This document shows positions 989 through 61,432 of a DNA stretch of 64,000 bases, one piece after another; position 1 is the stretch's first letter, and each line of letters starts with the position of its first letter. This stretch comes from an uncultured Chloroflexia bacterium. GTDB lineage: Bacteria > Chloroflexota > Anaerolineae > Anaerolineales > UBA4823. The DNA lies in assembly GCA_963709875.1 (NCBI GenBank), contig CAVPYB010000012.1, positions 392,320-456,319 on the forward strand, written 5' to 3'. The notes under the pieces are model-generated. The model was not told the DNA's origin, searched no databases, and saw nothing but the letters and a program-made list of their open reading frames with translations. The position numbers and the translations under genes were made by a program.

Positions 989-1672
989 ATGACTAGGATC
1001 GTCGCCCTTGTCCCCATGCGCCACCACTCCCAGCGGGTGCCGGGCAAGAACTACCGCCCATTAGCCGGTCGTCCGCTTTACCAGCACATCATCGAGAGCC
1101 TGCTGGCATGCCCAGAGATCGCCGAGGTGGTGGTGGACACCGACAGCCCGGTGCTGGTTGATGGTTTGGAGGAGAACTACCCGCAGGTGCGGGTGCTGGA
1201 ACGCCCTCAGCACCTGCGCGCCGACGAGACTTCCATGAACGAGGTGCTGGTTTACGACACCTCACAGGTGGAGGCCGACTTCTACCTGCAGACTCACAGC
1301 ACCAACCCGCTCCTGACGGCCAGCAGCATCTCCGGGGCTGTGCAGACCTTCCTGACGAACTACCCGAGCTGTGACTCGCTGTTCTCGGTCACCCGCCTGC
1401 AGACGCGGCTGTGGGACCAGCTTGGCAGGGCGATCAACCACAACCCTGCTATGCTGCTGCAAACACAGGACTTGCCTCCCGTATATGAAGAGAACTCCTG
1501 CCTGTATATCTTCACCCGCCAGACGTTGATATCCCGGCGCAACCGGCTGGGAGAGAGACCGCTGATGTACGAGATCAGCACAGCAGAAGCCTGGGACATC
1601 GACGATGAGACCGACTTCGCAGTCGTCGACACCCTGATGAAGCTGGGCTTTACCGGTGCGGGAGAGGGCTAG
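989..1672 (+). CDS. CMP-sugar synthetase-type cytidylyltransferase (NeuA/KdsB/PseF-like)
   Basis: 227-aa ORF; N-terminus IVALVPMRHHSQRVPGKNYRPLAGRPL resembles the PAR..S.R.P.KN nucleotide loop of the acylneuraminate cytidylyltransferase family; typical size for a single-domain enzyme. Confidence 0.7.
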   Translation: MTRIVALVPMRHHSQRVPGKNYRPLAGRPLYQHIIESLLACPEIAEVVVDTDSPVLVDGLEENYPQVRVLERPQHLRADETSMNEVLVYDTSQVEADFYLQTHSTNPLLTASSISGAVQTFLTNYPSCDSLFSVTRLQTRLWDQLGRAINHNPAMLLQTQDLPPVYEENSCLYIFTRQTLISRRNRLGERPLMYEISTAEAWDIDDETDFAVVDTLMKLGFTGAGEG

Positions 1673-1676
1673 CCCA

Positions 1677-2687
1677 ATGCCGGCAAGCAGTTCTCCACCG
1701 CTTACCGTTCTCTTCTCCGCACCCTATATGCTCCCATTCCTGGATTGCTTCAGGCCGGTCTTCGATCACCTGGGCATCCGGCTGATTGTGGCTGAGGTGC
1801 AGGAACGGCTGGATGAGGGGCACCTGATGGGTATTGCCGGGCAATTCGATGGTGTCCTGTGTGGCGACGACCAATTCACCGCCCGCGTGCTGGAGGCCTG
1901 CTCGCCGCGCCTGCGGGTGATTGCCAAATGGGGCACCGGCATCGACTCGATCGACAAAGAGACCTGCGACCGCCTGGGAATCAGGGTCGGTCGCACGCTC
2001 AACGCCTTCACGCTGCCGGTTGCCGACACGGTCTTAGGCTACATCCTGGCATTCGCCCGCCGCCAGCCCTGGATGGACCGGGCGATGAAAGCAGGGCAGT
2101 GGGAGAAAATCCCCGGTCGTTCGCTCAGCGAATCAACGCTGGGTGTGGTCGGCGTGGGCAATATCGGCAAGGCGGTCATCCGCCGGGGGCGGGCTTTCGG
2201 CATGACCGTGCTGGGCACCGATATCGTCGAGATCGCCCACGACTTCCTACTGGAGAATAACGTCGAGATGACCTCCCTGGAAGACCTGCTGGGGCGCTCG
2301 CACTACGTCAGCCTGAACTGCGACCTCAACCCGACCAGCCACCACCTGATCAATGCCCGCACCCTGGAACAGATGATGCCCAACGGCGTGCTGATCAATG
2401 TGGCGCGCGGGCAGGTGGTGGACGAGCCTGCTTTGGTGGGTGCCCTGCAGCGGGGTGTCATCGGCGGGGCAGCATTGGATGTGTACGAAGTCGAGCCGCT
2501 GCCCAAGGACAGCCCGCTGCTCAAGCTGGATAACGTCCTGCTGGCGCCCCACAATTCCAATTCCAGCCCCTCAGCCTGGGAGCGCGTGCACTGGAGCACC
2601 TTGCGCGCCCTGCTGGAAGGGCTGGGCTTCGAGCTCAACGATGAGCTGGTCGCGCTGGTGAAGCAGCCCATCGTCCACTCGTACTGA
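1677..2687 (+). CDS. D-isomer-specific 2-hydroxyacid dehydrogenase (phosphoglycerate dehydrogenase-like)
   Basis: NAD loop GVVGVGNIGKAV, then LINVARG and APHNSNSS (Arg/His catalytic positions of the family); ATG 1677 chosen because it follows the upstream stop (the ORF track starts at GTG 1656). Confidence 0.75.
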   Translation: MPASSSPPLTVLFSAPYMLPFLDCFRPVFDHLGIRLIVAEVQERLDEGHLMGIAGQFDGVLCGDDQFTARVLEACSPRLRVIAKWGTGIDSIDKETCDRLGIRVGRTLNAFTLPVADTVLGYILAFARRQPWMDRAMKAGQWEKIPGRSLSESTLGVVGVGNIGKAVIRRGRAFGMTVLGTDIVEIAHDFLLENNVEMTSLEDLLGRSHYVSLNCDLNPTSHHLINARTLEQMMPNGVLINVARGQVVDEPALVGALQRGVIGGAALDVYEVEPLPKDSPLLKLDNVLLAPHNSNSSPSAWERVHWSTLRALLEGLGFELNDELVALVKQPIVHSY

Positions 2688-2719
2688 TTCTCCGCTGAAG
2701 GAATAAAGGCATTACTTTG

Positions 2720-3493
2720 ATGACAGAAATGATATCCTCCTCGAGAATCGCCCTGGTCACCGGCGCAGCGGGCGGCATCGGACGCGCCACCATACAGCTG
2801 TTTGCCGATAAGGGCTGGCGCGTGATCGGCGTCGACCGCGCCCCATTCGGTGACAGCTTCCCGGAAAATGGGCTGTTCATCCAATCGGACATTTCGGTTG
2901 GCGAGAACCTGGATATCATTTTCCAGCAGGCACAGGCATACACCGGGTCGCTGAGCGCCCTGGTGAACAACGCCGCTCTCCAGGTCGCCAAGCCGCTGCT
3001 CGAGACCAGTGTTGCAGATTGGGATGCGGTGATGGCCTCCAACCTGCGCTCGGTGTTCCTGGGGATCAAGCTGGCGCACCCGCTGCTCAAGGCAGCCGGA
3101 GGCGGGGCGATTGTCAACGTATCTTCAGTACATGCCGTGGCGACCTCAGCTAATATCGCCGCTTATGCCGCCAGCAAAGGCGGTCTGCTGGCGTTGACGC
3201 GTGCCATCGCCATCGAGTTCGCTCCGGATGATATCCGCTGCAACGCGGTGCTGCCCGGCGCAGTGGACACACCTATGCTGCGCGCCGGGCTGGAGCGCGG
3301 CCATGTCGGCGAAGGCAATATCCTGGAGCGGTTGGACAACCTGGCCCGACGGACTGTCAACGGGCGCGTCGGACTGCCAGAGGAGATCGCCCACGCCATC
3401 TACTTCCTGGCCGACGAGGAGCAGTCATCCTTTATGACCGGGCAGGCATTGATCGTCGACGGCGGTGCGACTGCCCGGCTGAGCACAGAGTAG
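2720..3493 (+). CDS. short-chain dehydrogenase/reductase (SDR)
   Basis: ALVTGAAGGIGRAT Rossmann motif, NNAA, catalytic YAASK, C-terminal FMTGQALIVDGG. Confidence 0.85.
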   Translation: MTEMISSSRIALVTGAAGGIGRATIQLFADKGWRVIGVDRAPFGDSFPENGLFIQSDISVGENLDIIFQQAQAYTGSLSALVNNAALQVAKPLLETSVADWDAVMASNLRSVFLGIKLAHPLLKAAGGGAIVNVSSVHAVATSANIAAYAASKGGLLALTRAIAIEFAPDDIRCNAVLPGAVDTPMLRAGLERGHVGEGNILERLDNLARRTVNGRVGLPEEIAHAIYFLADEEQSSFMTGQALIVDGGATARLSTE

Positions 3494-3509
3494 CCTGCAC
3501 TACACCCCT

Positions 3510-6077
3510 ATGGACAAACAAACTCTGAAAGCCTATATCCCGCCGTCGGTCTGGCGGGCAGCCAGCGAGACGCGTTATGCTTTCAACCGCGCTGCCCTGT
3601 GGCCGGCGGCGACTTTCCACCCCTGGCGGCGCGCCAGCCGGGAGCGCCTGGCAGCGCTCAAAGATATCCACCGCGGCCAGCGCTGCTTCATCATCGGCAA
3701 CGGTCCCAGCCTGAAACAGACCGACCTTACCCGACTGCGGGGTGAGAACACCTTCGGGATGAACCGCTTCTATATGGCTTTCCCAGAGCTGGGCTTCACC
3801 ACTACCTACTTCCTCTCGGTCAACAGCCTGGTCATCGAACAGTGCGCCGCGGATTTCAACCACCTGCCGATACCCAGGTTCCTCTCCTGGCGCTCGCGCC
3901 ACCTGCTCGAGCCTGCCGCAGATAACATCTTCCTGCACACGACATACAGCGGGCCGCGCTTCGCGACAGACGCCGGCGGCAGGCTGTGGGAGGGCGCAAC
4001 GGTGACTTACGTCGCCCTACAGCTGGCCTATCACATGGGATTCCGGCAGGCGATCCTGATCGGGGTGGATCACAGCTTCACGACCCAGGGGACGCCCAAC
4101 ACCACGGTGGTCTCGCAAGGCGATGACCCCAACCACTTCCACCCCGGGTATTTCGGCAAAGGCTTCCGCTGGCAGCTTCCCGACCTGGAGACCTCGGAAC
4201 GCGCCTACCGCCTGGCGAAAGAATCCTACGAGAGAGATGGTCGCCAGGTGCTGGACGCCACCGTGGGCGGCAAGCTGGACGTCTTTCCAAGAGTGGACTA
4301 CAACAGCCTGTTCGAAATCAGCAGCGGTGGAAGAGATCAGCCGATGACCGGTAACGACCAGACTATTGTCGAGAAATCCCGGGAACGGTTCGGCTGGTTG
4401 GATATCGCCCTGCTGGGAGTGCTGCTGGTGGTGACACTTGCGCCGCGCCTGGTTGCGCTGGGGCGCTTCGTCACCGCAGATGAGCCCACCTGGGGCAAGC
4501 GCTCGGCGAGTTTCTATTACGCCCTGGATAACCGTGATTATGCCAGCACCTACCAGACCGGTCATCCGGGCGTGCTGACCATGTGGGCCGGCGCGCTGGC
4601 TTACCACCTCAAATTCCCCCAGTACCTTAAGGTCGGCCAGGCAGAGCTGGGCGATACCAAGCTGCTGCAGATCTTCCAGAAACACGGCCCCAACCCGCTG
4701 GAGCTGATGGTTTCAGCCCGGCTTAATATGGTGGCTGCCAACGTCATCGCCCTGGCAGCCAGCTTCCTCTTTGCCAGGCGGCTCTTCGGGCGCTGGCTTT
4801 CCTTTTTCGCTTTTCTGCTGATCGCCTTCCTGCCGCTGCATGTAGCCCATTCACGCTTCCTGCACACCAACGGTATGCTCAGCAGCTACATGTTCCTGGC
4901 GGTGCTGGCTTATCTTTATTTCCTGCAGTTTCGCAAAGGGCTCGCCCTGGTTGCGTCCGGGATTGCCGGTGGGTTGAGCTTCATGACTATCACACCGGCG
5001 TTTATCCTGGTCCCGGTGGTAGGTTTGCTGACCCTGCTCTCACTGCTTCACAACCAGCCAGGCTACCGCAGTTGGCGGCTCAAAGCTTGGTTCCAGCGCC
5101 TGCTCTTCCCTCCGATCTTGTGGGGGCTGATCAGCCTGCTGACTGTATTCATCATCTGGCCTGCCATGTGGGTGCAGCCGGTCGAATCGCTGCTCAACAT
5201 ATTCCGCTATACAGCCGGCGTAGCGGATGGATATGTGGTCGCTGTGGGTCTGGGTGACACCGATGATGTCCTTGACGCAGCCTGGTACCAGTATCTGCAG
5301 TTCTACCCGCTCACTTACCTGTGGCGGACGACACCGGTGACCTTGCTCGGTCTGATACTGGCGATCCCGGTCTTGATACGCCGGCGTGAATCTTACCGGC
5401 TGGTCTCGGGCGCTCGGTGGAATCTGCTCTTGCTGCTGCTGTATGTTGCCGTCTATACCATTGTCATGACGATCGGCGCCAAAAAAGGTGACCGATATTT
5501 CCTGCCCGCCTATCTGCCCCTTGCGGTGGTCGGCGCTGCTGGTTGGTATGCCTGCGCAAACTGGCTGGCGACCAGATCCGAGTTCATCCGCAAATACTCA
5601 CTGCAGTATGTTATGCTTGGCAGTCTGGTGCTGGTCGAGATATTGGGCACGATGCGCACGGCACCTTATTACCTGACCTACTTCAACCCACTGCTCGGAG
5701 GCATCCGCACCGCCCCGTCCTTTATGTCAATCGGCTGGGGTGAAGGGCTGAACGAGGCCGCGCTGTACCTGGAAGAAAAGACAGATTTTTGCGATAAGAG
5801 GATCATCTCCTGGTACCCACTGGCGTATAACTGGTACAGTACCAGCTTCGGCTGCCAGGCACAGTTTGTCGAATTTTCACCGGACAAAGACCTGATATAT
5901 TATTTGGATAATTTCGATTACGCGATCATCTATATCAACCAGCGCCAGCGCAACTACCCACAAGACCTGCTTGGCTATCTTGAAGGGCAAACGCCCGAAC
6001 ACACCGTCTGGATCGAGGGCATGGATTACGCCCGCATTTACCGTTTGCAGCCGGACAGTCCAGATACAACCCCGTAA
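3510..6077 (+). CDS. fusion protein: N-terminal sialyltransferase-like (GT42/DUF115, MAF-type) domain + C-terminal GT-C (ArnT/PMT-like) polytopic membrane glycosyltransferase
   Basis: 855-aa ORF. Residues ~55-275 carry FIIGNGPSLKQTDLTRLRGENTFGMNRFY and LIGVDHSF, matching the GNGPSL...N.FY...G.D pattern of CstII-type and MAF/DUF115 proteins. From ~aa 297 there are multiple TM helices with a first-loop TADEPTW (GT-C D-E motif) and a soluble C-terminal domain. Confidence 0.65.
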   Translation: MDKQTLKAYIPPSVWRAASETRYAFNRAALWPAATFHPWRRASRERLAALKDIHRGQRCFIIGNGPSLKQTDLTRLRGENTFGMNRFYMAFPELGFTTTYFLSVNSLVIEQCAADFNHLPIPRFLSWRSRHLLEPAADNIFLHTTYSGPRFATDAGGRLWEGATVTYVALQLAYHMGFRQAILIGVDHSFTTQGTPNTTVVSQGDDPNHFHPGYFGKGFRWQLPDLETSERAYRLAKESYERDGRQVLDATVGGKLDVFPRVDYNSLFEISSGGRDQPMTGNDQTIVEKSRERFGWLDIALLGVLLVVTLAPRLVALGRFVTADEPTWGKRSASFYYALDNRDYASTYQTGHPGVLTMWAGALAYHLKFPQYLKVGQAELGDTKLLQIFQKHGPNPLELMVSARLNMVAANVIALAASFLFARRLFGRWLSFFAFLLIAFLPLHVAHSRFLHTNGMLSSYMFLAVLAYLYFLQFRKGLALVASGIAGGLSFMTITPAFILVPVVGLLTLLSLLHNQPGYRSWRLKAWFQRLLFPPILWGLISLLTVFIIWPAMWVQPVESLLNIFRYTAGVADGYVVAVGLGDTDDVLDAAWYQYLQFYPLTYLWRTTPVTLLGLILAIPVLIRRRESYRLVSGARWNLLLLLLYVAVYTIVMTIGAKKGDRYFLPAYLPLAVVGAAGWYACANWLATRSEFIRKYSLQYVMLGSLVLVEILGTMRTAPYYLTYFNPLLGGIRTAPSFMSIGWGEGLNEAALYLEEKTDFCDKRIISWYPLAYNWYSTSFGCQAQFVEFSPDKDLIYYLDNFDYAIIYINQRQRNYPQDLLGYLEGQTPEHTVWIEGMDYARIYRLQPDSPDTTP

Positions 6078-6107: not shown

Positions 6108-7646
6108 ATGTCAGCAATAAACTCATCTTTAAACCGTAAGCCTCAGCTCTGGCAGTACCTCCTGCTGTCGCTCTTGCTCCTGGCAGGTCTGGCGCTGAGA
6201 TTCTACGACCTCACCGACCAGCCGATAGACTTCCACCCCACGCGCCAGCTGCGCGGGGCGATCATCGCCCGCGGCATGTACTACGACATGCTGACTTCCG
6301 CCGACCCCGTGCTGCGTGAGCAGGCAATCGCTTCCTGGTTCTCCACCGGGCAGTACGAGCCGCCCATCCTGGAGCGGCTGGTAGCCTATGCGTACTTGCT
6401 CGCCGGGGGAGAATACCTGTGGATCTCGCGCATATTCACCTCGATCTTCTGGATCATCAGCGCCATCGCCCTGTTCGACATCGCGCGGCGCATGGCAGCC
6501 AGCCCGGCGCAGGGGAGCTCCCAAATCGCCGGGGCGGCTGCGCTCATCGCCGTGGCATATTTCCTCTTCCTGCCGTTTGCCGTGCAGGCCAGCCGCTCAT
6601 TCCAGCCCGACCCGGGGATGGTGATGTGGATCGTGCTGTCCGTCAACATGCTCTACCGCTGGTCTGAACGGCGCAGCTGGAAATGGGCAATCCTGGCGGG
6701 GGTTTTCGGCGGCATTGCGCTGCTGACCAAAGTGGTGGCGTTCTATATTATCGGCGGCGCTGCCGTCGCTCTGGTCCTCTACACGCTGGGGATCAGGCGC
6801 TTCTGGCGCGACCCGCAGGTCTGGGCTATGATCGCTATCATGGTTGCCCCGCCCGCAATTTATTATCTAGGGCGCGGCGGGAGGGCCTCCGAGTTCTTCA
6901 CCACCTGGACGGTGGAGCTGGCTCACCTGCTGCTCCAACCATCTTTTTACGCCCGCTGGCTGAACACCGTGCAGGGCTTGATGGGGCTCGCCACCCTGCT
7001 GGCAGCCCTGGTCGGGGTGCTGATCGCCCGGCCCAGGCCGCGCGCCCTCTTGATCGGCCTGTGGGCCGGTTACGTCATCTACGGCTTATTCCTGCCGTAC
7101 CAGATGACCACGCACAGCTACTACCACCTGCAGCTGACTCCCATCATCGCTCTCTCGCTCGTTCCATTGATCGAGGTGATCCTGGAAAAGATCGGCGAGC
7201 AGCGCTGGTGGTGGCAGGTCGCGTTTGCCGGGGTGGTGGTCGTGGGGCTGGCTTTCTCCGCCGTGGTATCGATTGGCGAACAGAAGCAGGAGGACCACCG
7301 GGTAGAGACTGCATACTGGCAGGAGATCGCATCGTACCTTCCGGTGGATGGCAAGATCATCGCCCTCACACAGGATTACGGCTACCGTCTGATGTACTAC
7401 GGCTGGCGCAAGGTCACCCTATGGCCGAACCGCGGCGAGCTCAACGTTGCCAAGCTGCGCGGCAGCGAGAAAGAGTTCGAGGAGTACTTCAACAAGCGTG
7501 TCGAAGATAAAAGCTATTTCTTGATCACGGCATTCAACCAGTTCAGAGACCAGCCCGACCTGCAGGAATACCTGGAGAAATACTATCCTGTCGTTGCGGA
7601 AGGGGTTGGTTATCTGATCTACGACCTGGAAAACCCGCTCCAGTGA
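6108..7646 (+). CDS. GT-C fold membrane glycosyltransferase (ArnT/PMT family-like)
   Basis: 512-aa polytopic ORF; first loop RFYDLTDQPIDFHPTRQ, many TM segments, soluble C-terminal domain similar in pattern to those of 3510-6077 and 15872-17401. Confidence 0.65.
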   Translation: MSAINSSLNRKPQLWQYLLLSLLLLAGLALRFYDLTDQPIDFHPTRQLRGAIIARGMYYDMLTSADPVLREQAIASWFSTGQYEPPILERLVAYAYLLAGGEYLWISRIFTSIFWIISAIALFDIARRMAASPAQGSSQIAGAAALIAVAYFLFLPFAVQASRSFQPDPGMVMWIVLSVNMLYRWSERRSWKWAILAGVFGGIALLTKVVAFYIIGGAAVALVLYTLGIRRFWRDPQVWAMIAIMVAPPAIYYLGRGGRASEFFTTWTVELAHLLLQPSFYARWLNTVQGLMGLATLLAALVGVLIARPRPRALLIGLWAGYVIYGLFLPYQMTTHSYYHLQLTPIIALSLVPLIEVILEKIGEQRWWWQVAFAGVVVVGLAFSAVVSIGEQKQEDHRVETAYWQEIASYLPVDGKIIALTQDYGYRLMYYGWRKVTLWPNRGELNVAKLRGSEKEFEEYFNKRVEDKSYFLITAFNQFRDQPDLQEYLEKYYPVVAEGVGYLIYDLENPLQ

Positions 7647-7656
7647 ACCCAGACAG

Positions 7657-8628
7657 ATGGCATTGATCTCGGTGATCACCCCCTCATACAACCAGGCTGC
7701 CTACCTGGAAGAGACCATCCTGTCTGTGTTGGGGCAAGACTTCCCCGGGCTGGAATATATCGTGGTGGATGGGGGTTCCACCGATGGCAGTCAGGATATC
7801 ATCCACAGATACAAGGAGCGGATTTCCTGGTGGGTGTCGGAACCCGACTCCGGTCAGGCAGAAGCGATCAACAAAGGGCTCTCCCGGGCGACCGGGGAGG
7901 TCGTGGCATGGATCAACTCGGACGATGTATATCTGTCCGGAGCAGTTGCCCGGGCAACAGCGGTGCTGCAAGCCGAACCCTGCTTGGGATTCGTGTACGG
8001 GGACGCGGTCACCATCGACGCCGGTGGATACCAGCTCAGCCGGCTGAAATTTGGTCGATACGATCTGCTGGATCTGATGGCGTTCCGGATCATCTGCCAG
8101 CCGGCAGTCTTCATGCGCCGTTCTGTGCTCGAAGAGGCCGGCATGCTGGATGCCAGCTACCATTATCTGCTCGACCACCAGCTCTGGATCAGGCTTGCCC
8201 GGCTGGCTCCTTTCATGTACTTACCGTCCACCATGGCTGCAGCTCGCCACCATCCGGAAGCCAAGAACGTCGCCCAGGCAGCCGGATTCGGGCAAGATGC
8301 GTTCCGCATCCTGGACTGGATGAGCGCCCAACCGGATCTGGCACCCATCGTCGCCTCCCAGCGCAGCCGCATCGAAGCCGGCGCTCACCGCCTGAACGCC
8401 CGCTACCTGCTGGATGGCGACCTCCCATCCCTGGCCCTAAAAGCCTACCGCCAGGCTCTGCGGTTGAACCCGCGCTTTGCCCTGCAGCACTGGCACCGCA
8501 TGCTCTACGCGACCTTGAGCCTGGTAGGCGGGAAAGGTCTGGCTGCCTGGTACTACCGCCTGCGCAGACCTTCAAATACCCGGTTGGTCCAACCGGTTAA
8601 TCCCACCACAGCCCAGCAAGATCGATGA
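7657..8628 (+). CDS. glycosyltransferase family 2
   Basis: ISVITPSYNQAAYLEETILSVLGQDFPGLEYIVVDGGSTDGS...WINSDDVY; paralog of 9597-10400. Confidence 0.8.
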   Translation: MALISVITPSYNQAAYLEETILSVLGQDFPGLEYIVVDGGSTDGSQDIIHRYKERISWWVSEPDSGQAEAINKGLSRATGEVVAWINSDDVYLSGAVARATAVLQAEPCLGFVYGDAVTIDAGGYQLSRLKFGRYDLLDLMAFRIICQPAVFMRRSVLEEAGMLDASYHYLLDHQLWIRLARLAPFMYLPSTMAAARHHPEAKNVAQAAGFGQDAFRILDWMSAQPDLAPIVASQRSRIEAGAHRLNARYLLDGDLPSLALKAYRQALRLNPRFALQHWHRMLYATLSLVGGKGLAAWYYRLRRPSNTRLVQPVNPTTAQQDR

Positions 8629-9593
8629 CCTCCCCCCGGGAACGCGACAAGGACCACCCCACAAATAGCACCAGTTCAGCCAGCCCCATCCTGGTCACCG
8701 GCGCGCACCGCAGCGGGACCACCTGGGTAGGAAAGATGCTGTCTGCCGGAGGCGAGGCTGCTTATATCAGCGAGCCGCTTAACGTCCTGCACCGGCCGGG
8801 AGTCTTCGGCGCTCCAGTCCGCCGCTGGTACACGTACATCTGCACTGAGAACGAAGCCGAATACCTGCCAGGCATGCAGCAGACGCTGGCTTTCCAATAC
8901 CATACCCTTGACGAATTGCGCGCCCTGCGCTCACGCAAGGATGCCCTGCGCATGGGGCGCGATTGGACGGCCTTCCTGGCAGGCAGGCTGGGCAGGAAAC
9001 GACCGCTGCTGAAGGACCCCTTCGCGGTATTCTCCGCTCCCTGGTTCGCCGAGCGGTTGGGATGCAGGGTGGTGATCAGCGTGCGCCACCCGGTCGCGTT
9101 TGCCAGCAGCCTCAAGCGCCTGGCTTGGCCATTCGAGTTCCAGGACCTGCTCGAACAGCCCCTGCTCATGCAGCACCTGCTCGAGCCGTTCCGCTCCGAG
9201 ATCGAGGCAGCATCCCCCACGGATATCATCTCCCAGGCCGGACTGCTGTGGAAGGTCATCTACCAGGTCGCAGCAGGCTTCGTGCAAGAACACCCGCATT
9301 TCATCAGCGTGCATCACGAGGACCTCTCGCTGAACCCGGTGGACGGGTACCGCCTCTTGTACAAGCAGCTCGGTCTGGAATTCAATGCCCGGGCGCAGCA
9401 GGCGGTGCTTGATTCGAGCAGCCCTGCCAATCCGGATGAGCTTTCAAAGGATTCCATCCACGCCTACCAGCTGGACAGCCAGGCAAACCTGTCGAACTGG
9501 AAGGAGCGGCTGACCGGGCATGAGGTCGAGCGCATCCAGGAGATCACCGGCGAAACCGCATCTATATACTACCCCGCGCTCTCATGGAGCTGA
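8625..9593 (+). CDS. sulfotransferase (PAPS-dependent family)
   Basis: ILVTGAHRSGTTWVGKML resembles the 5'-phosphosulfate-binding loop; start overlaps the upstream stop (ATGA), indicating translational coupling. Confidence 0.65.
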   Translation: MTSPRERDKDHPTNSTSSASPILVTGAHRSGTTWVGKMLSAGGEAAYISEPLNVLHRPGVFGAPVRRWYTYICTENEAEYLPGMQQTLAFQYHTLDELRALRSRKDALRMGRDWTAFLAGRLGRKRPLLKDPFAVFSAPWFAERLGCRVVISVRHPVAFASSLKRLAWPFEFQDLLEQPLLMQHLLEPFRSEIEAASPTDIISQAGLLWKVIYQVAAGFVQEHPHFISVHHEDLSLNPVDGYRLLYKQLGLEFNARAQQAVLDSSSPANPDELSKDSIHAYQLDSQANLSNWKERLTGHEVERIQEITGETASIYYPALSWS

Positions 9594-10532: not shown

Positions 10533-12176
10533 ATGAGTTTTTGGAACGGTAATAAACCTTTCCTGATTTCAGCAGCAGTGATACTGCTGGTGTTTGTTTT
10601 CGCTGGCAGCGGCTGGATGCAGGTTGCACTGGCTGATCGGCAGGCAGATGTTTAGCAATCGGATGACAGCGGCACAGCGCCCGAGAGCCCAGAGCTCACC
10701 AATAACGTGTTCGTGCCGCTGATGTTCACCGACCACCCCTGGGAATCACCATTCGGGGTCGAAGCCAACCTGCCGCTGCTGGACTCGAACACCCTGCTGC
10801 CGCGCGCGACCGATCTGCAGCTCGGCTTAGCCAGGATGGGCTATCATATCTCCTGGCGCAAACTGCAGCCAAACCCGGGTGACCCGATCCAATGGGGCTT
10901 GTTGGCTACCTTCGAAGATGAGCTGCGCGGGCTGAAAGCTGCCGGCATCCGGCCGGTGGTGGTGATTAAAGACAGCCCCTATTGGGCGCTCGACCCGGTA
11001 AAAGCGCGTGATGGGAATGGGAACCTGACCTCCTGCGGGGCGATCGATGAAGATTATTTCGACGAGTTCGCCGCCTTTATCACCCAGATAGTCAAGAAGT
11101 ACAACACCGCCGAGTTCAATGTCCTGGACTGGGAGCTGGGCAACGAGCCGGATGTCGACCCCACCGCAGTGCCGCAGAATTACCAATTCGGATGTTGGGG
11201 GGATAAAGATGACCCGTATTACGGTGGAGAACATTACGGCCGCATGCTGATCGCTGTCGCGCCAGCCATCCGGAAAGCAGACTCGCGCGCCCGCATCTGG
11301 ATCGGCGGCTTGCTGCTCAACAGCCCCAACTCAGCCTCGAGCAGCAGCATGACCACACTGCTGCCCCGGGACATAGAAGCGTACCGGAATACACCTTACC
11401 TCCCTGCCGAAACCAGTGCCAGTCTGCCAGAACTTTTCTTCGAAGGCATCCTCAAAGCCGGAGCAGCGCCCCACTTCGACATCGCAGCGTATCATTGGTA
11501 TGCCACCTATTGGGATTTCCTGGGTACTGGAACTCGCTACGATTGGGACCTGTGGCCGCAAAACCAGTGGTATTCCTGGGGCGGCGGGACGGTGGGCAAG
11601 GCGCGCTTCCTGCGCCAGACCATGGCCGCTTACGGCGTCGATAAGCCGCTCGTGCTGAACGAGACCGGTTTCGGCTGCAAAGAAGACCCCACAAAACCTG
11701 ATTACTGTGATGCCCCGGGTAACCTGTTCTTCGAATCGCAGGCCAACCACCTGATCCGCTACTTCATCCGCGGCCTGAGTGAAAATGTCGGCGGCTTCGT
11801 ATGGTACACGCTCAACGGTCCAAGCTGGCGCAACGTCGGTTTGCTGGATGGGAGCAGCCCGCCCATGCCCAGGAAATCCTATACCGCTTTCAAGCAGCTC
11901 TCCGATATCCTGCAGTACGCCCGCTACCGCTACCCGGTCAGCTACGACCCTGCCATCGAAGGATATGCCTTCAAGAGCGGCTCGCAGCACGTGCACGTCC
12001 TGTGGGCTAAAGAAGATCAGACGGTTGAATTCTTCGTCCCCATAAACAAATTCATCCGCGCTGAGCGGTGGGATGGCTCGATCCTTTACGATCTATCCAA
12101 CCCGCCTCCAATCGTGGGCTCGGATTATCGGCTGGAGGTCGGCTTCAGCCCGATCTATCTCGTGCGCTATCCTTAA
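10533..12176 (+). pseudogene. clan GH-A (TIM-barrel) glycoside hydrolase with signal anchor, interrupted by an in-frame TAG
   Basis: ATG 10533 (AGGAG 8 nt upstream) encodes MSFWNGNKPFLISAAVILLVFVFAGSGW..., a TM anchor. In-frame TAG at 10653-10655. The same frame continues into the 489-aa ORF carrying DWELGNEPD (acid/base) and LVLNETGFG (nucleophile) motifs. Confidence 0.6.
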
Positions 12177-14946: not shown

Positions 14947-14980
14947 GATTTCCTCTTCCACAGGGACCAGGGGTGAAATC

Positions 14981-52355: not shown

Positions 52356-52471
52356 GATCTGAGCCCCTTGCCAAACCCGGCGATTTTCCATGATAATAAC
52401 CCTGCCCGGATCGCCAGCGACCGGGACGAACGGTAAACAGCAAGTCCATATCTTCCGGACTCTACCTGACT

Positions 52472-53371
52472 ATGGAGGGTACCATGACCACACCCCTTGC
52501 CGGGTCCCCCGGCGCACCCTCGGAACGCAAGAAAATCACCACGCTCACCTTCCGCCGCAAGAAGCTGCGCGGCGAGGTGATCAGCATGCTGACCGCCTAC
52601 GACTACCCCACCGCCCTGGCGATGGACCAGGCCGGGATCGACTCGATCCTGGTCGGCGATTCGCTCGGCATGGTCGTGCTGGGCTACCCCAATACGCTGC
52701 CGGTCACCATGGACGACATGCTGCACCACTGCCGGGCGGTGGCGCGCGGCGCCCAGTACGCCCTGCTGATCGGCGATATGCCCTTCATGTCCTACCAGGC
52801 TTCGGCGGAGGAGGCCGTGCGCAACGCCGGTCGCTTCCTGCAGGAAGCCGGCATGGATGCCGTCAAGCTGGAAGGCGGCCGCGAGCGCGCTGGACGCTGT
52901 GCGCGCGATCGTCTCCGCCGGCATCCCGGTGATGGGTCACCTGGGCCTGACCCCGCAGAGCGTCCACCAGTTCGGCGGCTTCCGCCCGCAGGGACGACGA
53001 GGCGGCTGCCGCCCAGCGCCTGCTGGAAGACGCCCTGATCCTGCAGGAGGCCGGCTGCTTCAGCATCGTGCTGGAATCCGTCCCCGCCCGGCTGGCGAGC
53101 GCTGATCAGCCAGCGCCTGGAGATCCCCACCATCGGCATCGGCGCCGGCGCCGGCTGCGACGGGCAGGTGCTGGTCACCCACGACCTGCTGGGGCTGTTC
53201 GACCGCTTCACCCCCAAATTCGTCAAGAAGTACGCCGACCTGCACGGCGAGATGAAGCGCGCCTTCACCTCGTACATCAAACAGGTCAAAGAGCGCTCCT
53301 TCCCGGCCGCGGAGCACACCGTCGAGATGCTCGATGATGAGTGGCAGAGCTTCCTGGATGGGCTGCGCTGA
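52472..53371 (+). pseudogene. panB: 3-methyl-2-oxobutanoate hydroxymethyltransferase, about 3 frame disruptions
   Basis: [34 protein letters not shown]... in frame 2; [23 protein letters not shown] in frame 0; [21 protein letters not shown] in frame 1; IPTIGIGAGAGCDGQVLVTHDLLG in frame 2. Shifts near 52890, 52990 and 53100. Confidence 0.8.
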
Positions 53372-53402
53372 AGACCCGCGGCTCCAGGTCGGACTGATAC
53401 CC

Positions 53403-54337
53403 ATGACTCCCACTTCACCCCCCACTCCTCATCGTCGGCACCGGCGCGATGGCGTGCCTGTTCGCCGCCCGCCTGTCGGCTGCCGGGGTGCCCGTCGTCA
53501 TGCTGGGTACCTGGCAGGCCGGGCTGCAGGCCTTGCAGAGAACAGGGCGTCACCCTGGTCGAAGCGGACGGGCGCCAGCACACTTACCCGGTCGCGAGCG
53601 ACCGATGATCCGAGCTGCGTGCCGCGGGACGCAGCTGGCGCTGGTGCTGGTCAAATCCTGGCAGACCCGAGCGCGCTGCCCGGCAGCTGGCAAACTGTCT
53701 GGACGATGATGGCGTGGCGCTCACCCTGCAGAACGGCATCGGCAACCGCGAGACGCTGGTGGAACTCCTGGGCGCCGCGCGGGTTGCCCTGGGCGTGACC
53801 ACGCTGGGCGCCAACCTGGCCGCTCCCGGGCAGGTGGTCGCGGCCGGGGATGGCACGATCTCCCTCGGCGTGCACTCCCGGCTGGCACCCCTGGTCGATG
53901 CCCTGCAGTCGGCCGGCTTCACCGTCGAGGACGCCCCCGACCCGGACGTGCTGCTGTGGGGCAAGCTGGTGATCAACGCCGCCATCAACCCGCTGACCGC
54001 CCTGCTGCGGGTGCCCAACGGCGAGCTGCTGGAGCGCCCCACTGCCCGCGCCCTGATGGTTTCGCTGGCCCGCGAGGCGGCCGCGGTTGCAGCCGCCCAG
54101 GGCTATGCTTTAGACTACACCAACCCCGCTGCAGCCGTCGAAGCCGTCGCCCGGCGTACCGCCGCCAACCGCTCCTCCATGCTGCAGGACGTGCAGCGCG
54201 GCGCCCCCACCGAGATCGACGCCATCTGTGGGGCAATCGTGCGCGCCGGCGAGCAGACCGGCGTGCCCACCCCGGTCAACCAGCTGGTCTGGCAGCTGGT
54301 CAAAGCTCTATACAAAGAGTCGAACAACGAAGCCTGA
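53403..54337 (+). pseudogene. panE: 2-dehydropantoate 2-reductase, at least 4 frame disruptions in the first 320 nt
   Basis: Removing one C from the C6 run at 53418-53423 gives MTPTSPPLLIVGTGAMACLFAARLSAAG (Rossmann start). The later part is intact: LTLQNGIGN...WGKLVINAAINPLTALL...SSMLQDVQRG..TEID. Confidence 0.75.
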
Positions 54338-57683: not shown

Positions 57684-58091
57684 TTATCTTCCGATCTCAA
57701 CCGGGCAGATGGCGTCCGCTTCGATCTCAACCAGCATCTGTGGGTCGATCAAGGCGCTCACCTGGACCATCGTCGTCGCCGGTGGGTGGCCAGCGAAAAG
57801 CTCCCCATGCGCCCGGCCGTATTCCTGCCAGCGCGAGATATCCGTGACGTACATGCGCGTGCGCACCACGCAGGTCAGGTCCGCCCCCAGCGCGTTGAGC
57901 GCCTTCTCGATGATCTCGAAGCAGCGCCTGGTTTGGGCATAAGCATCGCCAGGCGCGAAGCAGCTTCCGTCTTCATTTACCGGGGCTGTCCCGGTCACAA
58001 AAATGCGCTCCCCGGCCCGCAGCGCCCGGCAGTAGCCCACCCGGGCTTCCCATGGGGCGCCAGAAAACGTGCGCTGGAAATCAGTCGTCAT
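57684..58091 (-). CDS. RidA/YjgF-family protein
   Basis: 135 aa from ATG 58091 (GGAGAAGGA upstream); [14 protein letters not shown]..., [16 protein letters not shown] are typical of the family. The ORF-track 360-aa ORF fuses it to feoB debris. Confidence 0.75.
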
Positions 58092-58126
58092 ATTCCTTCT
58101 CCTATCGCCAGCCGCACCCAGCACGT

Positions 58127-60412
58127 TTAGGCCAGCAAGCGCCAGATCTGCGCAACGAAGAACGTGATGATAAAGCCCATCCCCAGCGGCAGCAGGGCGG
58201 CTAATGCAGTCCACTTGCGGCTGCCGGTCTCTTTGTACATGGTGTATATCGTGGTGCTGCACGGGTTGTGCACCAGGCTGAACAGCATCAGGTTGACTGC
58301 AGTCAGCAGCGTCCAGCCTCCGGCAACCAGCAGGCCGCGGACGGCGCTCTCCGAATTCAAGCTCGAACATGACTCCGGCGCCCTCGCCGACACCGCTCAC
58401 TCCGGCGACCAGCACGGTCAGCATCAGGATGGTTGGGATGACGATCTCGTTGGCAGGGATGGCGACAATATACGCCACCAGGATGATCCCGTTCAGACCG
58501 ATCAGCAGCCCAAATGGGTTGAGGAAATCGATCATATACTCGGCAATGCTGACACCGCCAATCTGCATGTTGGAGATCAGCCAGATGACCGCTCCGGCCG
58601 GAAGGGCAAAGACGATCGCCCGCCACAGGACGTAGATCGTGCGGTCGATGAGCGAGGTGTAGATGGTCTGCCAGACGCGCGGCGGTCGATAGGGGGGCAG
58701 CTCCAGGCTGAAGGTCGAGACCTCGCCGCGCAGCACGGTGCGGGACAGATCCCCACGAAACAGCAAAGGTCAGCAGTACCCCCAACATGGCGACCCCCAC
58801 CACCGCCATGGCAGAGATCGAACCCGGCCAGGTGAGCCGGCACCAGCATCCCGATGAAGATGGTGGCGATCAGGATCTGGGTCGGCCAGCGACCATTGCA
58901 CAGGGCAAAGTTGTTGGTGATGATGGCGATCAGCCGCTCGCGCGGGCTGTCGATGATGCGGGTAGCGATCACACCGGCAGCATTGCAGCCGAAGCCCATC
59001 ATCATGCTCAAGGACTGCTTGCCGTGCGCGCCGGATTTTCTTGAAGATATTATCCAGGTTGAAGGCCACGCGCGGCAGGTAGCCGAAATCCTCCAGCAGG
59101 GTGAACAGCGGGAAGAAGATCGCCATCGGCGGCAGCATCACGCTGACCACCCAGGCTGTCGCCAGGTACATGCCATCGATCAGCAAACCGCTCAGCCACC
59201 AGGGCAGGCCGATCGCATCCGCCAGGCTTGTGCAGCATCGGGTATATCGTATCGATCAGCAGCGTTGCCAGCCAGGCAGAGGGGACATTCGCCCCGACGA
59301 TCGTGATCCAGAACACCAGGGTGAACAAAGCAGATCATCAGCGGGAAGCCCCATATCCGGCTGGTGACCGATCCGGTCGATCGTGCGGTCCAGATCGAAG
59401 CGTCGGTTGCTCGCCGGGCCGGGTGACCGCCCGGTCGGCGATGCGAGCGGCATCGGCATACAGCGCTTCCATCAGCTTCTCGTGGAAATCTGCGCCCAAT
59501 CTCCCAGCGCAGCGCCTGGGCGGTGACCAGGATATCTTCTGGATTGACCGTTGGCTTGAGAGTTCATCAGGCCGCCTCCAGTTTCAGAGTCCTAGGTCCG
59601 GGGTGCTCTGCTCCAGGTCGCCGCGGCTCAGATCGCCCAGCTCGCCTTTGCGCAGCGCTTCGATAATCTCCTCATCACCATCCAGCAGGCGCAGCGCCAC
59701 CCAGCGGGCATTCGGCAGGCCGGGGTAGAGCTGTCTCGATCTGACCGACCAGTTGAGCAACCGCCTGCTTCAATTCCGGTGGTTCGTTCTGTAGGCGATG
59801 CGGCTTGCCGGAGACCTTGCCCGGTGGCGACTTCGCTCACCATCTGCAGCAGCTCCTGCAAGCCCTCACCGCTGCCGGGCCGCAGTAGGTACCACCGGCA
59901 CCCCCAGATCGCGCGCCAGGCGGCGGTGGTCGATCTGCAGGTCATACCGCCGGGCTTCATCCATCAGGTTCAGGCACACCACCGCCCGGTCGGTGATCTC
60001 CAGCACCTGCAGGACCAGGTTCAGGTTGCGCTCCAGACGGGTGGCATCGACCACCACGATGGTGACATCCGGCTGCCCGAACAGGATGAAATTGCGGGCG
60101 ATCTCTTCGTCCAGACTGGTAGCCAGGAGTGAATATGTGCCGGGCAGATCAACCAGCTTGTAGCGGTTGTCGCCATATTCGAAATCCACCTTCTGCACGG
60201 GATACTGTCTTGCCCGGCCAGTTGCCGGTATGCTGGCGCAGACCGGTCAGGGCGTTGAAAACTGTGCTTTTACCCGTATTCGGGTTGCCGGCCAGCGCCA
60301 CCACATAGTCCCAATCCTGCATGTCGACGCCCAGCTTGAGCAGGTTGGCTGCGTTGTGCGCAGGGCAAGTCTCGCATGCCGATTGGGTGTTTTTCTCAGG
60401 TTGAGCTTTCAC
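58127..60412 (-). pseudogene. feoB: ferrous iron transporter FeoB, at least 9 frame disruptions
   Basis: G-domain [34 protein letters not shown]. Membrane part [54 protein letters not shown]-terminus [11 protein letters not shown]. These occur in about 10 consecutive pieces in alternating frames. Confidence 0.8.
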
Positions 60413-61432
60413 GAAGCTGCCTCCTCGACACGTTGAATGTTAATGAATGCTGCCTGTTCCTCCCGCAGGGCGATCAATGCGCCGCGCACTCGGTACGCAG
60501 TCGGGTCACCTGAAGGGCTGTCCATCTCTGCCTTGACAAGGGTACCGGGCAGGATGCCAAGATCGAGCATGCGCCTGCGTTCTGGGCCGCGGCAAACCGG
60601 GAGCAATATTGATCACCCGACCGCTCTGCCCCGGTCTCAACGCACTCATCGGCTCAACTCCGGCGGGCAGCGCGGTCTCCACCTTCGGGGAGGGCTGGAC
60701 AGAGATATTCGCCGCCACCAGTGGCGCTAATAGATGCTCATCGTTGTTAGCCCAAAACCTGATCCGCTGGGGAGCTGTCTCGATCACGCGCACCTCCATG
60801 CCTGGGTACAGCCCCTCTGCCCTGATCTGCGCGTAAACGGCTTCCGGCTCATCCTCGATATGGACGATGCGCGCCGGTTGGTCGACCTCCAGGGCTGTCA
60901 GGGGCCGCCCGCCATGCGGTTTCATCTCTCCCGCCGCGGTCGGGATGGGGTCACCATGCGGGTCGTAGGCTGGGTTTCCCAGCTGCACCGACAAGGCATC
61001 CGCCCGATCCCTGGTGAGCATATGTTCGTAATAATCTGCCTGACCGTGCCACTCGGCCTCATGGTAGCCGGTCTCGTCTGCCAGATAGCGCTCCCACAGG
61101 CGGTGGGCGCGGATGATGTGCAGGGCATAGTCCTGCCCGGCTGGCGTCAGGCGCAGCTCTCCGTTCGACAGGGCGATCAGACCCTGCTTTTCCATGCTGT
61201 CCATTAATTCAGCAGCCCGGTTGACGCTGATCTGCAGCTCCCCCGCCACACTCTGCAGGTTCGGGTGCTGACCCTTGACAGCAGATTTGTGCAGGTGCTT
61301 GAGCGCATCCTCCAGCAGGACGCGGTCCGACATGCGCCGCACCTGCCGCCAGCGGCTCACCAGCCCGCTGTCCGGCCAGAACAGCAGCAACAGGATTGCC
61401 AGTAGGAACACTCCAATTAACAATGCAATCAA
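60409..61432 (-). pseudogene. membrane-anchored DtxR-family regulator fused to two FeoA domains, one frame disruption
   Basis: N-terminal TM MIALLIGVFLLAILLLLFW; wHTH region; IIRAHRLWERYL, YDPHGDPIP; FeoA-like LTALEVDQPARIVHIED...GLYPGMEVRV. Second FeoA LSALRPGQSGRVINI...RRRMLDLGILPGTLV is restored by removing one G from GGG at 60599-60601. The stop overlaps the feoB start. Confidence 0.65.

What the first reader, a model, noticed from the sequence alone, without database searches (positions are those of the whole stretch)
3510..6077. Fusion of a cytoplasmic sialyltransferase-like (GT42/DUF115) domain to a GT-C membrane glycosyltransferase
The first ~290 residues carry FIIGNGPSLKQTDL...NRFY...GVDHSF, the pattern of CstII-type sialyltransferases and MAF/DUF115 proteins that use CMP-activated sugars in the cytoplasm. 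The rest is a polytopic ArnT/PMT-like GT-C enzyme (first-loop DE motif TADEPTW), a class that uses polyprenyl-phosphate-linked donors outside the membrane. One polypeptide therefore combines two donor chemistries and two sides of the membrane. One hypothesis is that the N-domain loads the CMP-sugar from the adjacent module onto a lipid carrier or acceptor, and the GT-C domain then handles it extracytoplasmically. I know of no characterised enzyme with this architecture.
Basis: partly seen in the sequence, partly recalled or inferred. Interest (0 to 1): 0.7.

Follow-up and report, generated by a model that had tools for sequence, protein, structure and literature searches.

The report
Two adjacent glycosyltransferase genes read as one
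The 855-residue "fusion" is two neighbouring genes (a Maf-like CMP-sugar-type transferase and a membrane GT-C glycosyltransferase) that are separate in every relative and are joined here by one extra base, in a contig that demonstrably contains many frameshift errors, so it is most likely an artefact or at best a one-off mutation.

Summary
The ORF 3510-6077 is uninterrupted in the sequence as given, and both domain calls hold. Residues 49-192 hit PF01973 (ex-DUF115/Maf) above threshold and the model's best fold match is Maf 5MU5. Residues from ~279 are a confident GT-C (PMT_2; STT3/ArnT/PMT-like fold; invariant first-loop D-E).

The fusion itself is not a conserved architecture. All 10 syntenic Anaerolineae loci have two genes (11-nt or 1-nt overlap, 2- or 17-nt gap). 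The other 20 members of its 90% cluster are at most 280 aa, and the 120 nearest N-domain homologues are stand-alone. No protein with both halves appeared near the top of an exhaustive search of 1.84 billion representatives.

The merge depends on one extra base at 4317-4320. In the +1 frame the tail still reads ...SLFE-AAVEEISR*, like the relatives' tails, and stops in an ATGA overlap with the GT-C's own ATG (4344).

The same contig carries at least 12 frameshifts in intact-looking genes (panB, panE, feoAB, a rhamnosidase-like gene), including a second merged ORF (FeoB fragment + RidA). No reads cover the junction.

Verdict: artefact ~0.55, real strain-specific singleton ~0.4, evolved bifunctional enzyme ~0.03. 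Interest is low.

The parts
3510..4343 (+). PF01973 (MptE-like / ex-DUF115, Maf-type) gene. It is a stand-alone protein of 259-289 aa in the 120 nearest homologues and 272-280 aa in the syntenic loci. Family-invariant residues are G63-N64-G65, S67, N85, D187, H209-F210, Y214, G216, G218, W221.
   Evidence: Pfam hit; invariant columns; AF2 model pLDDT 91.7 with the last 8 residues disordered; Foldseek best match Maf 5MU5; stand-alone homologues.
4317..4320 (+). Site of the frame change. Four bases (ATCA) occupy the place of one codon between the conserved ...SLFE (GAA, 4314-4316) and the ancestral tail, which is read in the +1 frame from 4321.
   Evidence: Frame translations and deletion scan; tails of the closest relatives; a ~86%-identical X3 contig spans the junction with one base missing at 4318.
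4321..4347 (+). Ancestral C-terminal tail of the PF01973 gene, still encoded in the +1 frame (AAVEEISR*). It ends at TGA 4345-4347 in an ATGA overlap with the GT-C start. A second out-of-frame stop (TAA, 4352-4354) sits at the position that L001/L008 use.
   Evidence: Compare ETSVVREAS*, KTSMVREAS* and GSAALEEAG* in relatives that are 88-92% identical.
4326..4335 (+). Purine-rich Shine-Dalgarno-like stretch GGTGGAAGAG, 8 nt upstream of the GT-C ATG. Relatives have GAGGTGA or GAGAGAGG at the same place.
   Evidence: Read from the sequence. Its function is inferred, not tested.
4344..6077 (+). GT-C membrane glycosyltransferase gene ('GTC1', 577 aa from its own ATG). It is 81-82% identical to stand-alone 577-aa proteins. 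Invariant residues (GT-C numbering) include D46-E47 (TADEPTW), H74, R171 and K380-K381-x-D383-R384-Y385.
   Evidence: stand-alone homologues and their starts; invariant columns; model pLDDT 88.0, pTM 0.91; STT3, ArnT 5F15, ALG12, Pmt4, AglB, AftA/Emb.
989..3493 (+). Conserved upstream cassette: CTP_transf_3 cytidylyltransferase (989-1672, weakly PseF/KdsB-like), D-2-hydroxyacid dehydrogenase (1656-2687) and SDR (2717-3493). It travels with the PF01973 gene across Anaerolineae.
   Evidence: Synteny counts in 87 loci: CTP3 in 61, 2-HADH in 69, SDR in 81.
6108..7646 (+). Second stand-alone GT-C (PMT_2/PMT, 512 aa, 'GTC2'). It is only remotely related to GTC1, and it is the GT-C usually found after the PF01973 gene in other Anaerolineae.
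   Evidence: found in 67 of 87 loci; 22% identity over 106 aa, E=0.004.
52400..54337 (+). Control: panB and panE are broken by at least 6 frameshifts while their protein sequence stays intact. This demonstrates consensus indel errors in this contig.
   Evidence: PF02548 positions 1-120, 118-156, 155-189 and 190-258 lie in four pieces over three frames; ApbA positions 2-86 and 81-148 lie in two frames.
57684..60612 (-). Control: feoA/feoB are fragmented over several frames. ORF 57684-58769 merges a FeoB C-terminal fragment with a complete RidA gene, a second frameshift-made 'fusion' in the same window.
   Evidence: FeoB_N positions 2-44 and 39-145, Gate 2-39, 37-100 and 58-103, and FeoB_C plus Ribonuc_L-PSP in one ORF.

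Best explanation
What is there is two ordinary, adjacent genes of an Anaerolineae (Chloroflexota) cell-wall glycan cluster. One is a roughly 278-aa cytoplasmic PF01973 (Maf-like) transferase. It probably uses the CMP-activated sugar made by the cytidylyltransferase-dehydrogenase cassette just upstream. The other is a 577-aa GT-C membrane glycosyltransferase with its own ribosome-binding site and ATG at 4344. In relatives the two are tightly spaced or overlapping, consistent with translational coupling, but each has its own stop and start. In this contig one extra base at 4317-4320, in the unconserved 3' tail of the first gene, moves the reading frame past the two out-of-frame stops (TGA 4345-4347, TAA 4352-4354) and into the GT-C frame. 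That produces an apparent 855-aa fusion. The most likely origin of the extra base is a consensus indel error of the assembly. Shown: the gene pair is separate everywhere else; the ancestral tail is still encoded in the +1 frame; the contig carries many frameshift errors. Inferred: that this particular base is one of those errors, and the enzymes' substrates.
For: Relatives: all 10 syntenic loci carry two genes (overlap 11 nt in L001/L008, overlap 1 nt in L002, gap 2 nt in L003-L007 and L009, gap 17 nt in L011). The exact 855-aa protein occurs on one contig only. The other 20 members of its 90% cluster are 277-280 aa or fragments. The 120 best N-domain homologues are 259-289 aa. None of 380 fetched proteins has both halves, including the top 150 of an exhaustive scan of 1.84e9 representatives.

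Junction: any 1-nt deletion in 4300-4343 gives a 278-aa protein ending in an ATGA overlap. The +1-frame tail E(T/S)AAVEEISR* resembles the relatives' ETSVVREAS*, KTSMVREAS* and GSAALEEAG*. The actual in-frame tail EISSGGRDQP matches none of them. An ~86%-identical metagenome contig lacks one base at 4318.

Contig quality: panB is split into 4 pieces over 3 frames and panE over 2 frames. feoA/feoB are split over several frames, and a FeoB_C+RidA merged ORF is present. A rhamnosidase-like gene is broken. Most of these shifts are +1, the same type as at the junction. The source contig is 699,698 bp, which suggests a long-read MAG; that last step is inference.
Against: No read-level evidence could be obtained for the junction. 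The 12 kb around the junction contains no other frame disruption, and all 10 neighbouring genes match L001 in length, so the local error density is low. Real frame-changing indels do occur in this tail in nature: the L001/L008 type uses the TAA frame and is seen in several independent assemblies. A rough prior therefore does not clearly favour error over a real mutation. The extra base is not in a long homopolymer (an AAA run or a T). A fusion would be topologically feasible, because both sides of the junction are modelled as disordered and the first hydrophobic TM segment begins only at about residue 299.
Confidence: 0.55

Rival explanations
1. The extra base is real: a very recent, strain-specific +1 insertion fused the two genes. 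The strain then makes an 855-aa protein with the PF01973 domain tethered in the cytoplasm by a ~30-residue disordered linker to TM1 of the GT-C. It probably also makes free GT-C from the retained internal RBS/ATG. The two domains keep their separate jobs, so the fusion is tolerated rather than an innovation.
For: The ORF is intact in the contig and the flanking 12 kb is clean. Natural indels do change the frame of this tail in relatives. The modelled termini on both sides of the junction are disordered (N-domain residues 271-278 pLDDT 52; GT-C residues 1-12 pLDDT <50). No TM segment occurs before residue ~299. Adjacency and stop/start overlap in relatives show the two are co-expressed anyway.
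Against: It is seen on one contig only. None of about 10 related lineages with the pair, nor any database protein, is fused, which suggests the in-frame state is selected against. The +1-frame tail is still family-like, so the event would have to be very recent. The contig demonstrably produces the same kind of merged ORF by error.
Confidence: 0.4
2. One reading: an evolved bifunctional enzyme in which the CMP-sugar-dependent N-domain loads a lipid carrier or acceptor in the cytoplasm, and the fused GT-C domain then uses that product outside the membrane.
For: Both domains and a neighbouring cytidylyltransferase are real. The PF01973 gene is usually near some GT-C gene in Anaerolineae clusters: a GTC2 homologue is present in 67 of 87 loci.
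Against: The architecture is absent from every relative and from the databases. The PF01973 gene lacks this GT-C in 77 of 87 loci. GT-C homologues at 45-51% identity are solitary genes in unrelated contexts. No polyprenyl-phosphate-linked ulosonic-acid donor is known (own knowledge). Three GT2 genes sit in the cluster and could be donor-makers for the GT-Cs, though the crude hydropathy scan found no TM segments in them.
Confidence: 0.03

Closest known systems
Maf (motility accessory factor) flagellin nonulosonic-acid glycosyltransferases, PF01973; structure 5MU5 (Magnetospirillum magneticum)
   Same: Same Pfam family, scoring above threshold. It is the best structural match of the N-domain model (E=5e-7, prob 1.0). 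The gene lies next to a CTP_transf_3 cytidylyltransferase, as expected for a CMP-sugar user. Maf enzymes use CMP-Pse/Leg and also CMP-Neu5Ac and CMP-Kdo (bioRxiv 10.1101/2020.06.03.131540).
   Different: It is only ~270 aa and lacks the extra domains of the 632-aa Maf (TM-score normalised to the target 0.23). There is no flagellin context. It sits in an ABC-transporter-type cell-wall polysaccharide cluster with Rml genes, GT2/GT4 genes and sulfotransferases. Its closest multidomain relatives are giant GT2/GT4/methyltransferase proteins, so the acceptor is probably a glycan and not a protein.
CstII / GT42 sialyltransferases (1RO7) and GT29 sialyltransferases (ST6GALNAC2 6APJ, ST8SiaIII 5BO7)
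   Same: It shares the N-terminal GNGPS nucleotide-binding motif with CstII (local match to residues 58-89). At the fold level it resembles GT29 sialyltransferases (prob 0.84-0.98).
   Different: Sequence similarity to CstII is not significant (E=0.13-0.17). CstII is not in the top 50 fold matches. This is not a GT42 member by any test run here.
Archaeal MptE 6-hydroxymethylpterin diphosphokinase (8SD5), the namesake of PF01973
   Same: Second-best structural match (E=7e-5), and the same Pfam family.
   Different: The context is glycan biosynthesis, not folate/methanopterin biosynthesis. A kinase-type activity cannot be excluded from sequence alone.
GT-C glycosyltransferases of the ArnT / PMT / STT3 type (GT83, GT39, GT66; PMT_2 PF13231)
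   Same: Pfam PMT_2 scores above threshold. The model matches STT3, ArnT 5F15 (TM 0.51/0.54), ALG12, Pmt4, AglB, AftA and Emb. The D-E pair in the loop after TM1 is invariant.
   Different: No significant sequence match to any solved GT-C. Donor and acceptor are unknown. It has a C-terminal alpha/beta soluble domain of its own.
Adjacent genes that are fused in one organism and split in relatives, e.g. mycobacterial Ppm1 (membrane domain + polyprenol-phosphate-mannose synthase fused in M. tuberculosis, two genes in M. smegmatis); recalled from memory, not tested
   Same: A cytoplasmic glycosyltransferase domain is joined to a polytopic membrane partner that is encoded next to it and is separate in relatives.
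   Different: There the fused state is fixed in a species and experimentally confirmed. Here it is a singleton resting on one base in an error-prone contig.

Membership tests
PF01973 (MptE-like / DUF115 / Maf_flag10) | Profile match above Pfam's gathering score | tested here: met
   36.8 bits against a cut-off of 34.6, residues 49-192, profile positions 17-170 of 171.
PF01973 (MptE-like / DUF115 / Maf_flag10) | Modified GT-A/Rossmann fold as in Maf 5MU5 and MptE 8SD5 | tested here: met
   AF2 model pLDDT 91.7. Foldseek: 5MU5 E=5e-7, 8SD5 E=7e-5, both prob 1.0.
Maf flagellin glycosyltransferase (functional class) | Full-length Maf architecture (~600 aa with flanking domains) and a flagellin/flagellar gene context | tested here: not met
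   The stand-alone homologues are 259-289 aa. TM-score normalised to the 632-aa target is 0.23. The context is a polysaccharide cluster with no flagellar gene.
Maf flagellin glycosyltransferase (functional class) | Uses a CMP-activated ulosonic/nonulosonic acid donor | not testable with these tools
   Only context is available: an adjacent CTP_transf_3 gene that is weakly PseF/KdsB-like (69 bits against a cut-off of 205.7). No NeuB/KdsA-type synthase was found among the window ORFs that were scanned.
GT42 (CstII-type sialyltransferases) | Significant sequence or structural similarity to CstII/Cst-I | tested here: not met
   phmmer E=0.13-0.99 over about 32 residues. CstII is absent from the top 50 Foldseek matches.
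GT-C superfamily (PMT_2; ArnT/PMT/STT3-like) | Profile match above the gathering score and a polytopic GT-C fold | tested here: met
   PMT_2 28.8 bits against 26.1. Model pLDDT 88.0, pTM 0.91. 26 PDB matches at E<=0.001, all of them GT-C enzymes.
GT-C superfamily (PMT_2; ArnT/PMT/STT3-like) | Conserved acidic motif in the first extracytoplasmic loop | tested here: met
   D46-E47 (TADEPTW) is invariant in 44 sequences. It lies in the non-helical stretch right after helix 18-36 of the model. Its side of the membrane is inferred, not tested.
GT-C superfamily (PMT_2; ArnT/PMT/STT3-like) | Polyprenyl-phosphate-linked sugar donor | not testable with these tools
   Inferred from the family only.
Natural bifunctional fusion protein (PF01973 + GT-C) | One uninterrupted ORF in the assembled sequence | tested here: met
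   The exact protein is on record once.
Natural bifunctional fusion protein (PF01973 + GT-C) | The same architecture in relatives or independent assemblies | tested here: not met
   0 of 10 syntenic loci. 0 of 20 other cluster members. 0 of 380 fetched proteins, including the top 150 of 1.84e9 representatives.
Natural bifunctional fusion protein (PF01973 + GT-C) | Junction supported by raw reads | tested here: inconclusive
   No available run holds the junction: zero depth at 4287-4456. The contig has at least 12 proven frameshifts elsewhere.

The most novel reading that the evidence does not exclude
The in-frame junction is real in this strain, the 855-aa protein is made and active, and it acts as a 'Rosetta stone'. 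It would show that the Anaerolineae PF01973 CMP-sugar-type transferase and the GT-C encoded next to it work as a physical complex, linking a cytoplasmic and an extracytoplasmic step of the same cell-wall glycan pathway.
Probability: 0.08. Interest if true: 0.5.

Novelty: not a real feature. Interest (0 to 1): 0.12.

Why it matters
If the fusion were a genuine, conserved architecture, it would be a new way of coupling nucleotide-sugar chemistry inside the cell to lipid-linked-sugar chemistry outside it. The evidence says it is not that. It is a singleton created by one base in a contig that is full of frameshift errors.

The practical lesson concerns data quality. Unusual "fusions" in long MAG contigs should be checked against relatives and for other split genes before they are interpreted.

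What remains of modest interest is the underlying biology. A four-gene cassette (cytidylyltransferase, 2-hydroxyacid dehydrogenase, SDR, small Maf-like transferase) is conserved across Anaerolineae next to GT-C, GT2 and sulfotransferase genes. It presumably adds an unidentified CMP-activated sugar to a sulfated, rhamnose-containing cell-wall glycan in a phylum whose envelope is poorly known.

Tried and rejected
1. Read-level confirmation. Three searches for sequencing runs and three lay-downs found no run holding the window's own junction. Only ~86%-identical relatives span it (one of them lacks a base at 4318), and short >=99% fragments lie beside it.

2. A combined full-length alignment for structure prediction (A3) was misaligned: 182 residues of each GT-C row fell in the N-domain columns. 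It was discarded and the two halves were modelled separately, so no model of the fused protein was made.

3. GTC1 as a recent duplicate of the neighbouring GTC2: rejected (22% identity over 106 aa).

4. Sequence search of the PDB gave nothing significant for either half. The top N-domain hits were designed repeat proteins matching a low-complexity stretch.

5. NCBIfam gave no usable name for the N-domain, GTC2, the sulfotransferase or the 489-aa protein.

6. Literature searches for DUF115, MptE-like and Anaerolineae envelope glycans found only the Maf work and nothing on this cassette or pair.

7. Identifying the CMP-activated sugar. No NeuB/KdsA-type synthase was found in the scanned ORFs of the window, and the cytidylyltransferase is far below the PseF/KdsB cut-offs. 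This is left open.

8. Treating the broken rhamnosidase-like gene alone as evidence of assembly error was judged ambiguous, because it has a frameshift plus an in-frame stop and could be a real pseudogene. The panB/panE and feoAB cases settled the point.

9. A rough prior calculation (own reasoning) of a real tail indel against an assembly error did not clearly favour either. That is why confidence in 'artefact' is only 0.55.
Full report
**1. Observation**

The ORF is in the sequence as described. ATG at 3510 opens an 855-codon frame that runs to the stop at 6075-6077 with no internal stop.

Pfam places residues 49-192 in PF01973 (now 'MptE-like', formerly DUF115/Maf_flag10): 36.8 bits against a gathering score of 34.6. 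Residues 401-511 fall in PMT_2: 28.8 bits against 26.1.

The upstream neighbours are:
- a GT2 (32-970);
- a CTP_transf_3 cytidylyltransferase (989-1672);
- a D-2-hydroxyacid dehydrogenase (1656-2687);
- an SDR (2717-3493).

Downstream come a second GT-C (6108-7646), a GT2, a sulfotransferase and another GT2. Further along the window encodes RmlABCD, GT4 and multidomain GT2/GT4 enzymes, a Wzm/Wzt-type ABC transporter, a WecA/MraY-like transferase and a Wzy_C-type protein. The setting is therefore an ABC-transporter-type cell-wall polysaccharide island.

**2.

- **N-part model.** A model built on 49 sequences is confident (pLDDT 91.7, pTM 0.86). Its best solved-structure matches are the Maf glycosyltransferase 5MU5 (E=5e-7), archaeal MptE HPPK 8SD5, and the human GT29 sialyltransferases ST6GALNAC2 and ST8SiaIII.
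- **N-part conserved residues.** Family-invariant residues include G63-N64-G65-x-S67, N85, D187, H209-F210, Y214 and W221.
- **GT42 membership is not supported.** CstII matches only at E=0.13-0.17 over about 32 residues, and it is not among the top 50 fold matches.
- **C-part.** The model is confident (pLDDT 88.0, pTM 0.91) and matches only GT-C enzymes: STT3, ArnT 5F15, ALG12, Pmt4, AglB, AftA and Emb. D46-E47 of TADEPTW is invariant in 44 relatives.

**3. The fusion is unique to this contig**

- **Full-length search.** The best hits (81-82% identity) are 577-aa stand-alone GT-C proteins that cover only the C-terminal 67% of the query. The N-part's relatives are either small stand-alone proteins or domains of giant GT2/GT4/methyltransferase/TPR proteins. 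None of the 120 listed hits has both halves.
- **Closest relative.** L001 has exactly the same gene order, but with a 280-aa PF01973 gene overlapping a 577-aa GT-C gene by 11 nt.
- **Other syntenic loci.** L002 overlaps by 1 nt. L003-L007 and L009 have a 2-nt gap. L011 has a 17-nt gap.
- **Wider survey.** Of 87 Anaerolineae loci, 10 have this GT-C after the PF01973 gene and all 10 have two genes. The other 77 lack it.
- **N-domain relatives.** All 120 best N-domain homologues (71-86% identity) are 259-289 aa.
- **Exhaustive search.** A phmmer scan of 1.84 billion representatives listed 150 top hits.
- **The exact protein.** The 855-aa sequence is on record once, on a 699,698-bp contig. The other 20 members of its 90%-identity cluster are 277-280 aa or fragments.

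**4. Anatomy of the junction**

The upstream gene's conserved sequence ends at ...VDYNSLFE (GAA at 4314-4316). The actual frame then reads ISSGGRDQP and runs into ATG 4344. That tail resembles no relative.

The +1 frame from 4321 reads AAVEEISR and stops at TGA 4345-4347, in an ATGA overlap with the GT-C start. With the preceding residue this gives E(T/S)AAVEEISR*. That fits the tails of the 88-92%-identical stand-alone relatives: ETSVVREAS*, KTSMVREAS*, EPSVVGEASQ* and GSAALEEAG*.

Four bases (ATCA, 4317-4320) stand where the ancestral reading needs three. Any single-base deletion in 4300-4343 restores a 278-aa protein. A ~86%-identical metagenome contig spanning the junction has exactly one base fewer at 4318. 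The third frame stops at TAA 4352-4354, which is the stop L001/L008 use.

The GT-C keeps its own ATG and a purine-rich stretch 8 nt upstream, as in the relatives. The function of that stretch is inferred. So the fusion rests on one base, and the ancestral reading has not yet decayed.

**5. Is that base real?**

No public run holds the junction, so this could not be tested directly. I therefore tested the contig's quality instead.

- **panB.** The Pfam profile is covered consecutively by four pieces in three frames (positions 1-120, 118-156, 155-189, 190-258).
- **panE.** The N-terminal domain is covered by two pieces in two frames (2-86, 81-148). Together with panB that is at least six frameshifts within 0.8 kb, yet each piece still encodes a well-conserved protein.
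- **feoA/feoB (minus strand).** These are fragmented in the same way: FeoB_N 2-44 and 39-145; Gate 2-39, 37-100 and 58-103.
- **A second merged ORF.** ORF 57684-58769 merges a FeoB C-terminal fragment with a complete RidA gene whose own Met is internal.
- **Rhamnosidase-like gene.** It is a single 972-aa gene in L007. Here it is broken by a frameshift near 12740 and an in-frame stop at 13576-13578.

Intact protein sequence across many frameshifts cannot be old pseudogene decay. The contig has consensus indel errors, mostly +1, which is the same type as at the junction.

Against this, the 12 kb around the junction is otherwise clean. Natural frame-changing indels also occur in this tail: the L001-type tail is seen in several independent assemblies. 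I therefore put artefact at about 0.55, a real but very recent strain-specific fusion at about 0.4, and an evolved bifunctional architecture at about 0.03.

**6. Function**

The PF01973 gene is part of a cassette (CTP_transf_3, 2-HADH, SDR, PF01973) conserved across Anaerolineae, including cultured Anaerolinea thermolimosa. In 87 loci the counts are 61, 69, 81 and 86. The cytidylyltransferase is only weakly PseF/KdsB-like.

PF01973 enzymes of the Maf type transfer CMP-activated nonulosonic acids, Neu5Ac and Kdo (bioRxiv 10.1101/2020.06.03.131540). The most likely role is therefore cytoplasmic transfer of an unidentified CMP-activated acidic sugar to the lipid-linked glycan before export. This is inferred, with confidence of roughly 0.5. 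A kinase-type activity like that of MptE is not excluded.

The GT-C most likely decorates the exported polymer from a polyprenyl-phosphate sugar. This is inferred from the family only.

The two proteins are not obligate partners. The PF01973 gene occurs without GTC1 in 77 of 87 loci. GTC1 homologues at 45-51% identity are solitary genes in unrelated neighbourhoods. This argues against the idea that the N-domain makes the GT-C's donor.

A fusion would be topologically feasible. Both termini at the junction are disordered in the models, and no TM segment precedes residue ~299. Feasibility is not evidence that the fusion exists.

**7. Verdict**

The domain-level interpretation is right, apart from GT42 membership. 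The headline claim, a single polypeptide combining two donor chemistries, is most probably not a real feature of the organism, and it is certainly not a conserved architecture. Interest is low.

Noticed in passing
window 52400-54337 (+): panB and panE are each split over several reading frames (at least 6 frameshifts in under 1 kb) while every piece still matches its Pfam profile consecutively. This points to consensus indel errors in the assembly. panC (real start after ~54350) and the type III pantothenate kinase (55329-56093) look intact.
   Followed up: yes
window 57684-60612 (-): feoA/feoB are fragmented over several frames. ORF 57684-58769 joins a FeoB C-terminal fragment to a complete RidA (Ribonuc_L-PSP) gene, an artefactual merged ORF of the same kind as the finding.
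   Followed up: yes
window 12210-15379 (+): A GH78-type alpha-L-rhamnosidase-like gene (a single 972-aa gene in L007) is broken here by a +1 frameshift near 12740 and an in-frame stop at 13576-13578, and possibly again near 14900. It could be a real pseudogene or an error.
   Followed up: partly
window 33956-34985 (+): Two overlapping ORFs in different frames (194 and 262 aa). The first has a weak Wzz (chain-length determinant) N-terminal hit. This may be one PCP-type gene split by another frameshift.
   Followed up: no
window 989-4343 and loci L001-L087: A four-gene cassette (CTP_transf_3, D-2-hydroxyacid dehydrogenase, SDR, small PF01973 protein) is conserved across Anaerolineae, usually followed by a GT-C, a GT2 and a sulfotransferase. 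The activated sugar is unidentified, and no NeuB/KdsA-type synthase was seen in the scanned ORFs.
   Followed up: partly
proteins P0242-P0373: Relatives of the N-domain occur as 2-3 tandem copies inside giant multidomain proteins (up to 2,455 aa). In one search, other N-domain relatives are fused to GT2, GT4, methyltransferase and TPR modules. A Pfam family absent from the local library (PF27901) accompanies PF01973 in many of them.
   Followed up: no
L068 1589-3238 (Anaerolinea thermolimosa IMO-1): A 549-aa polytopic membrane protein with no Pfam or NCBIfam hit is inserted between the 2-HADH and SDR genes of the cassette in several loci. It has a DD motif just after TM1 and a soluble C-terminal part, so it may be an unrecognised GT-C-like enzyme.
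   Followed up: no
window 10707-12176 (+); also 15872-17401 and 25209-26360: Conserved cluster proteins with no Pfam hit: a 489-aa soluble protein (56-58% identical in L001 and L007), a 509-aa protein with about 7 TM segments, and a 383-aa protein with one TM segment.
   Followed up: no
window 8625-9593 (+); L001 1937-3666: Sulfotransferase genes are a constant part of the cluster (one in the window, and two more upstream of the cluster in L001). This suggests the Anaerolineae cell-wall glycan made here is sulfated.
   Followed up: no
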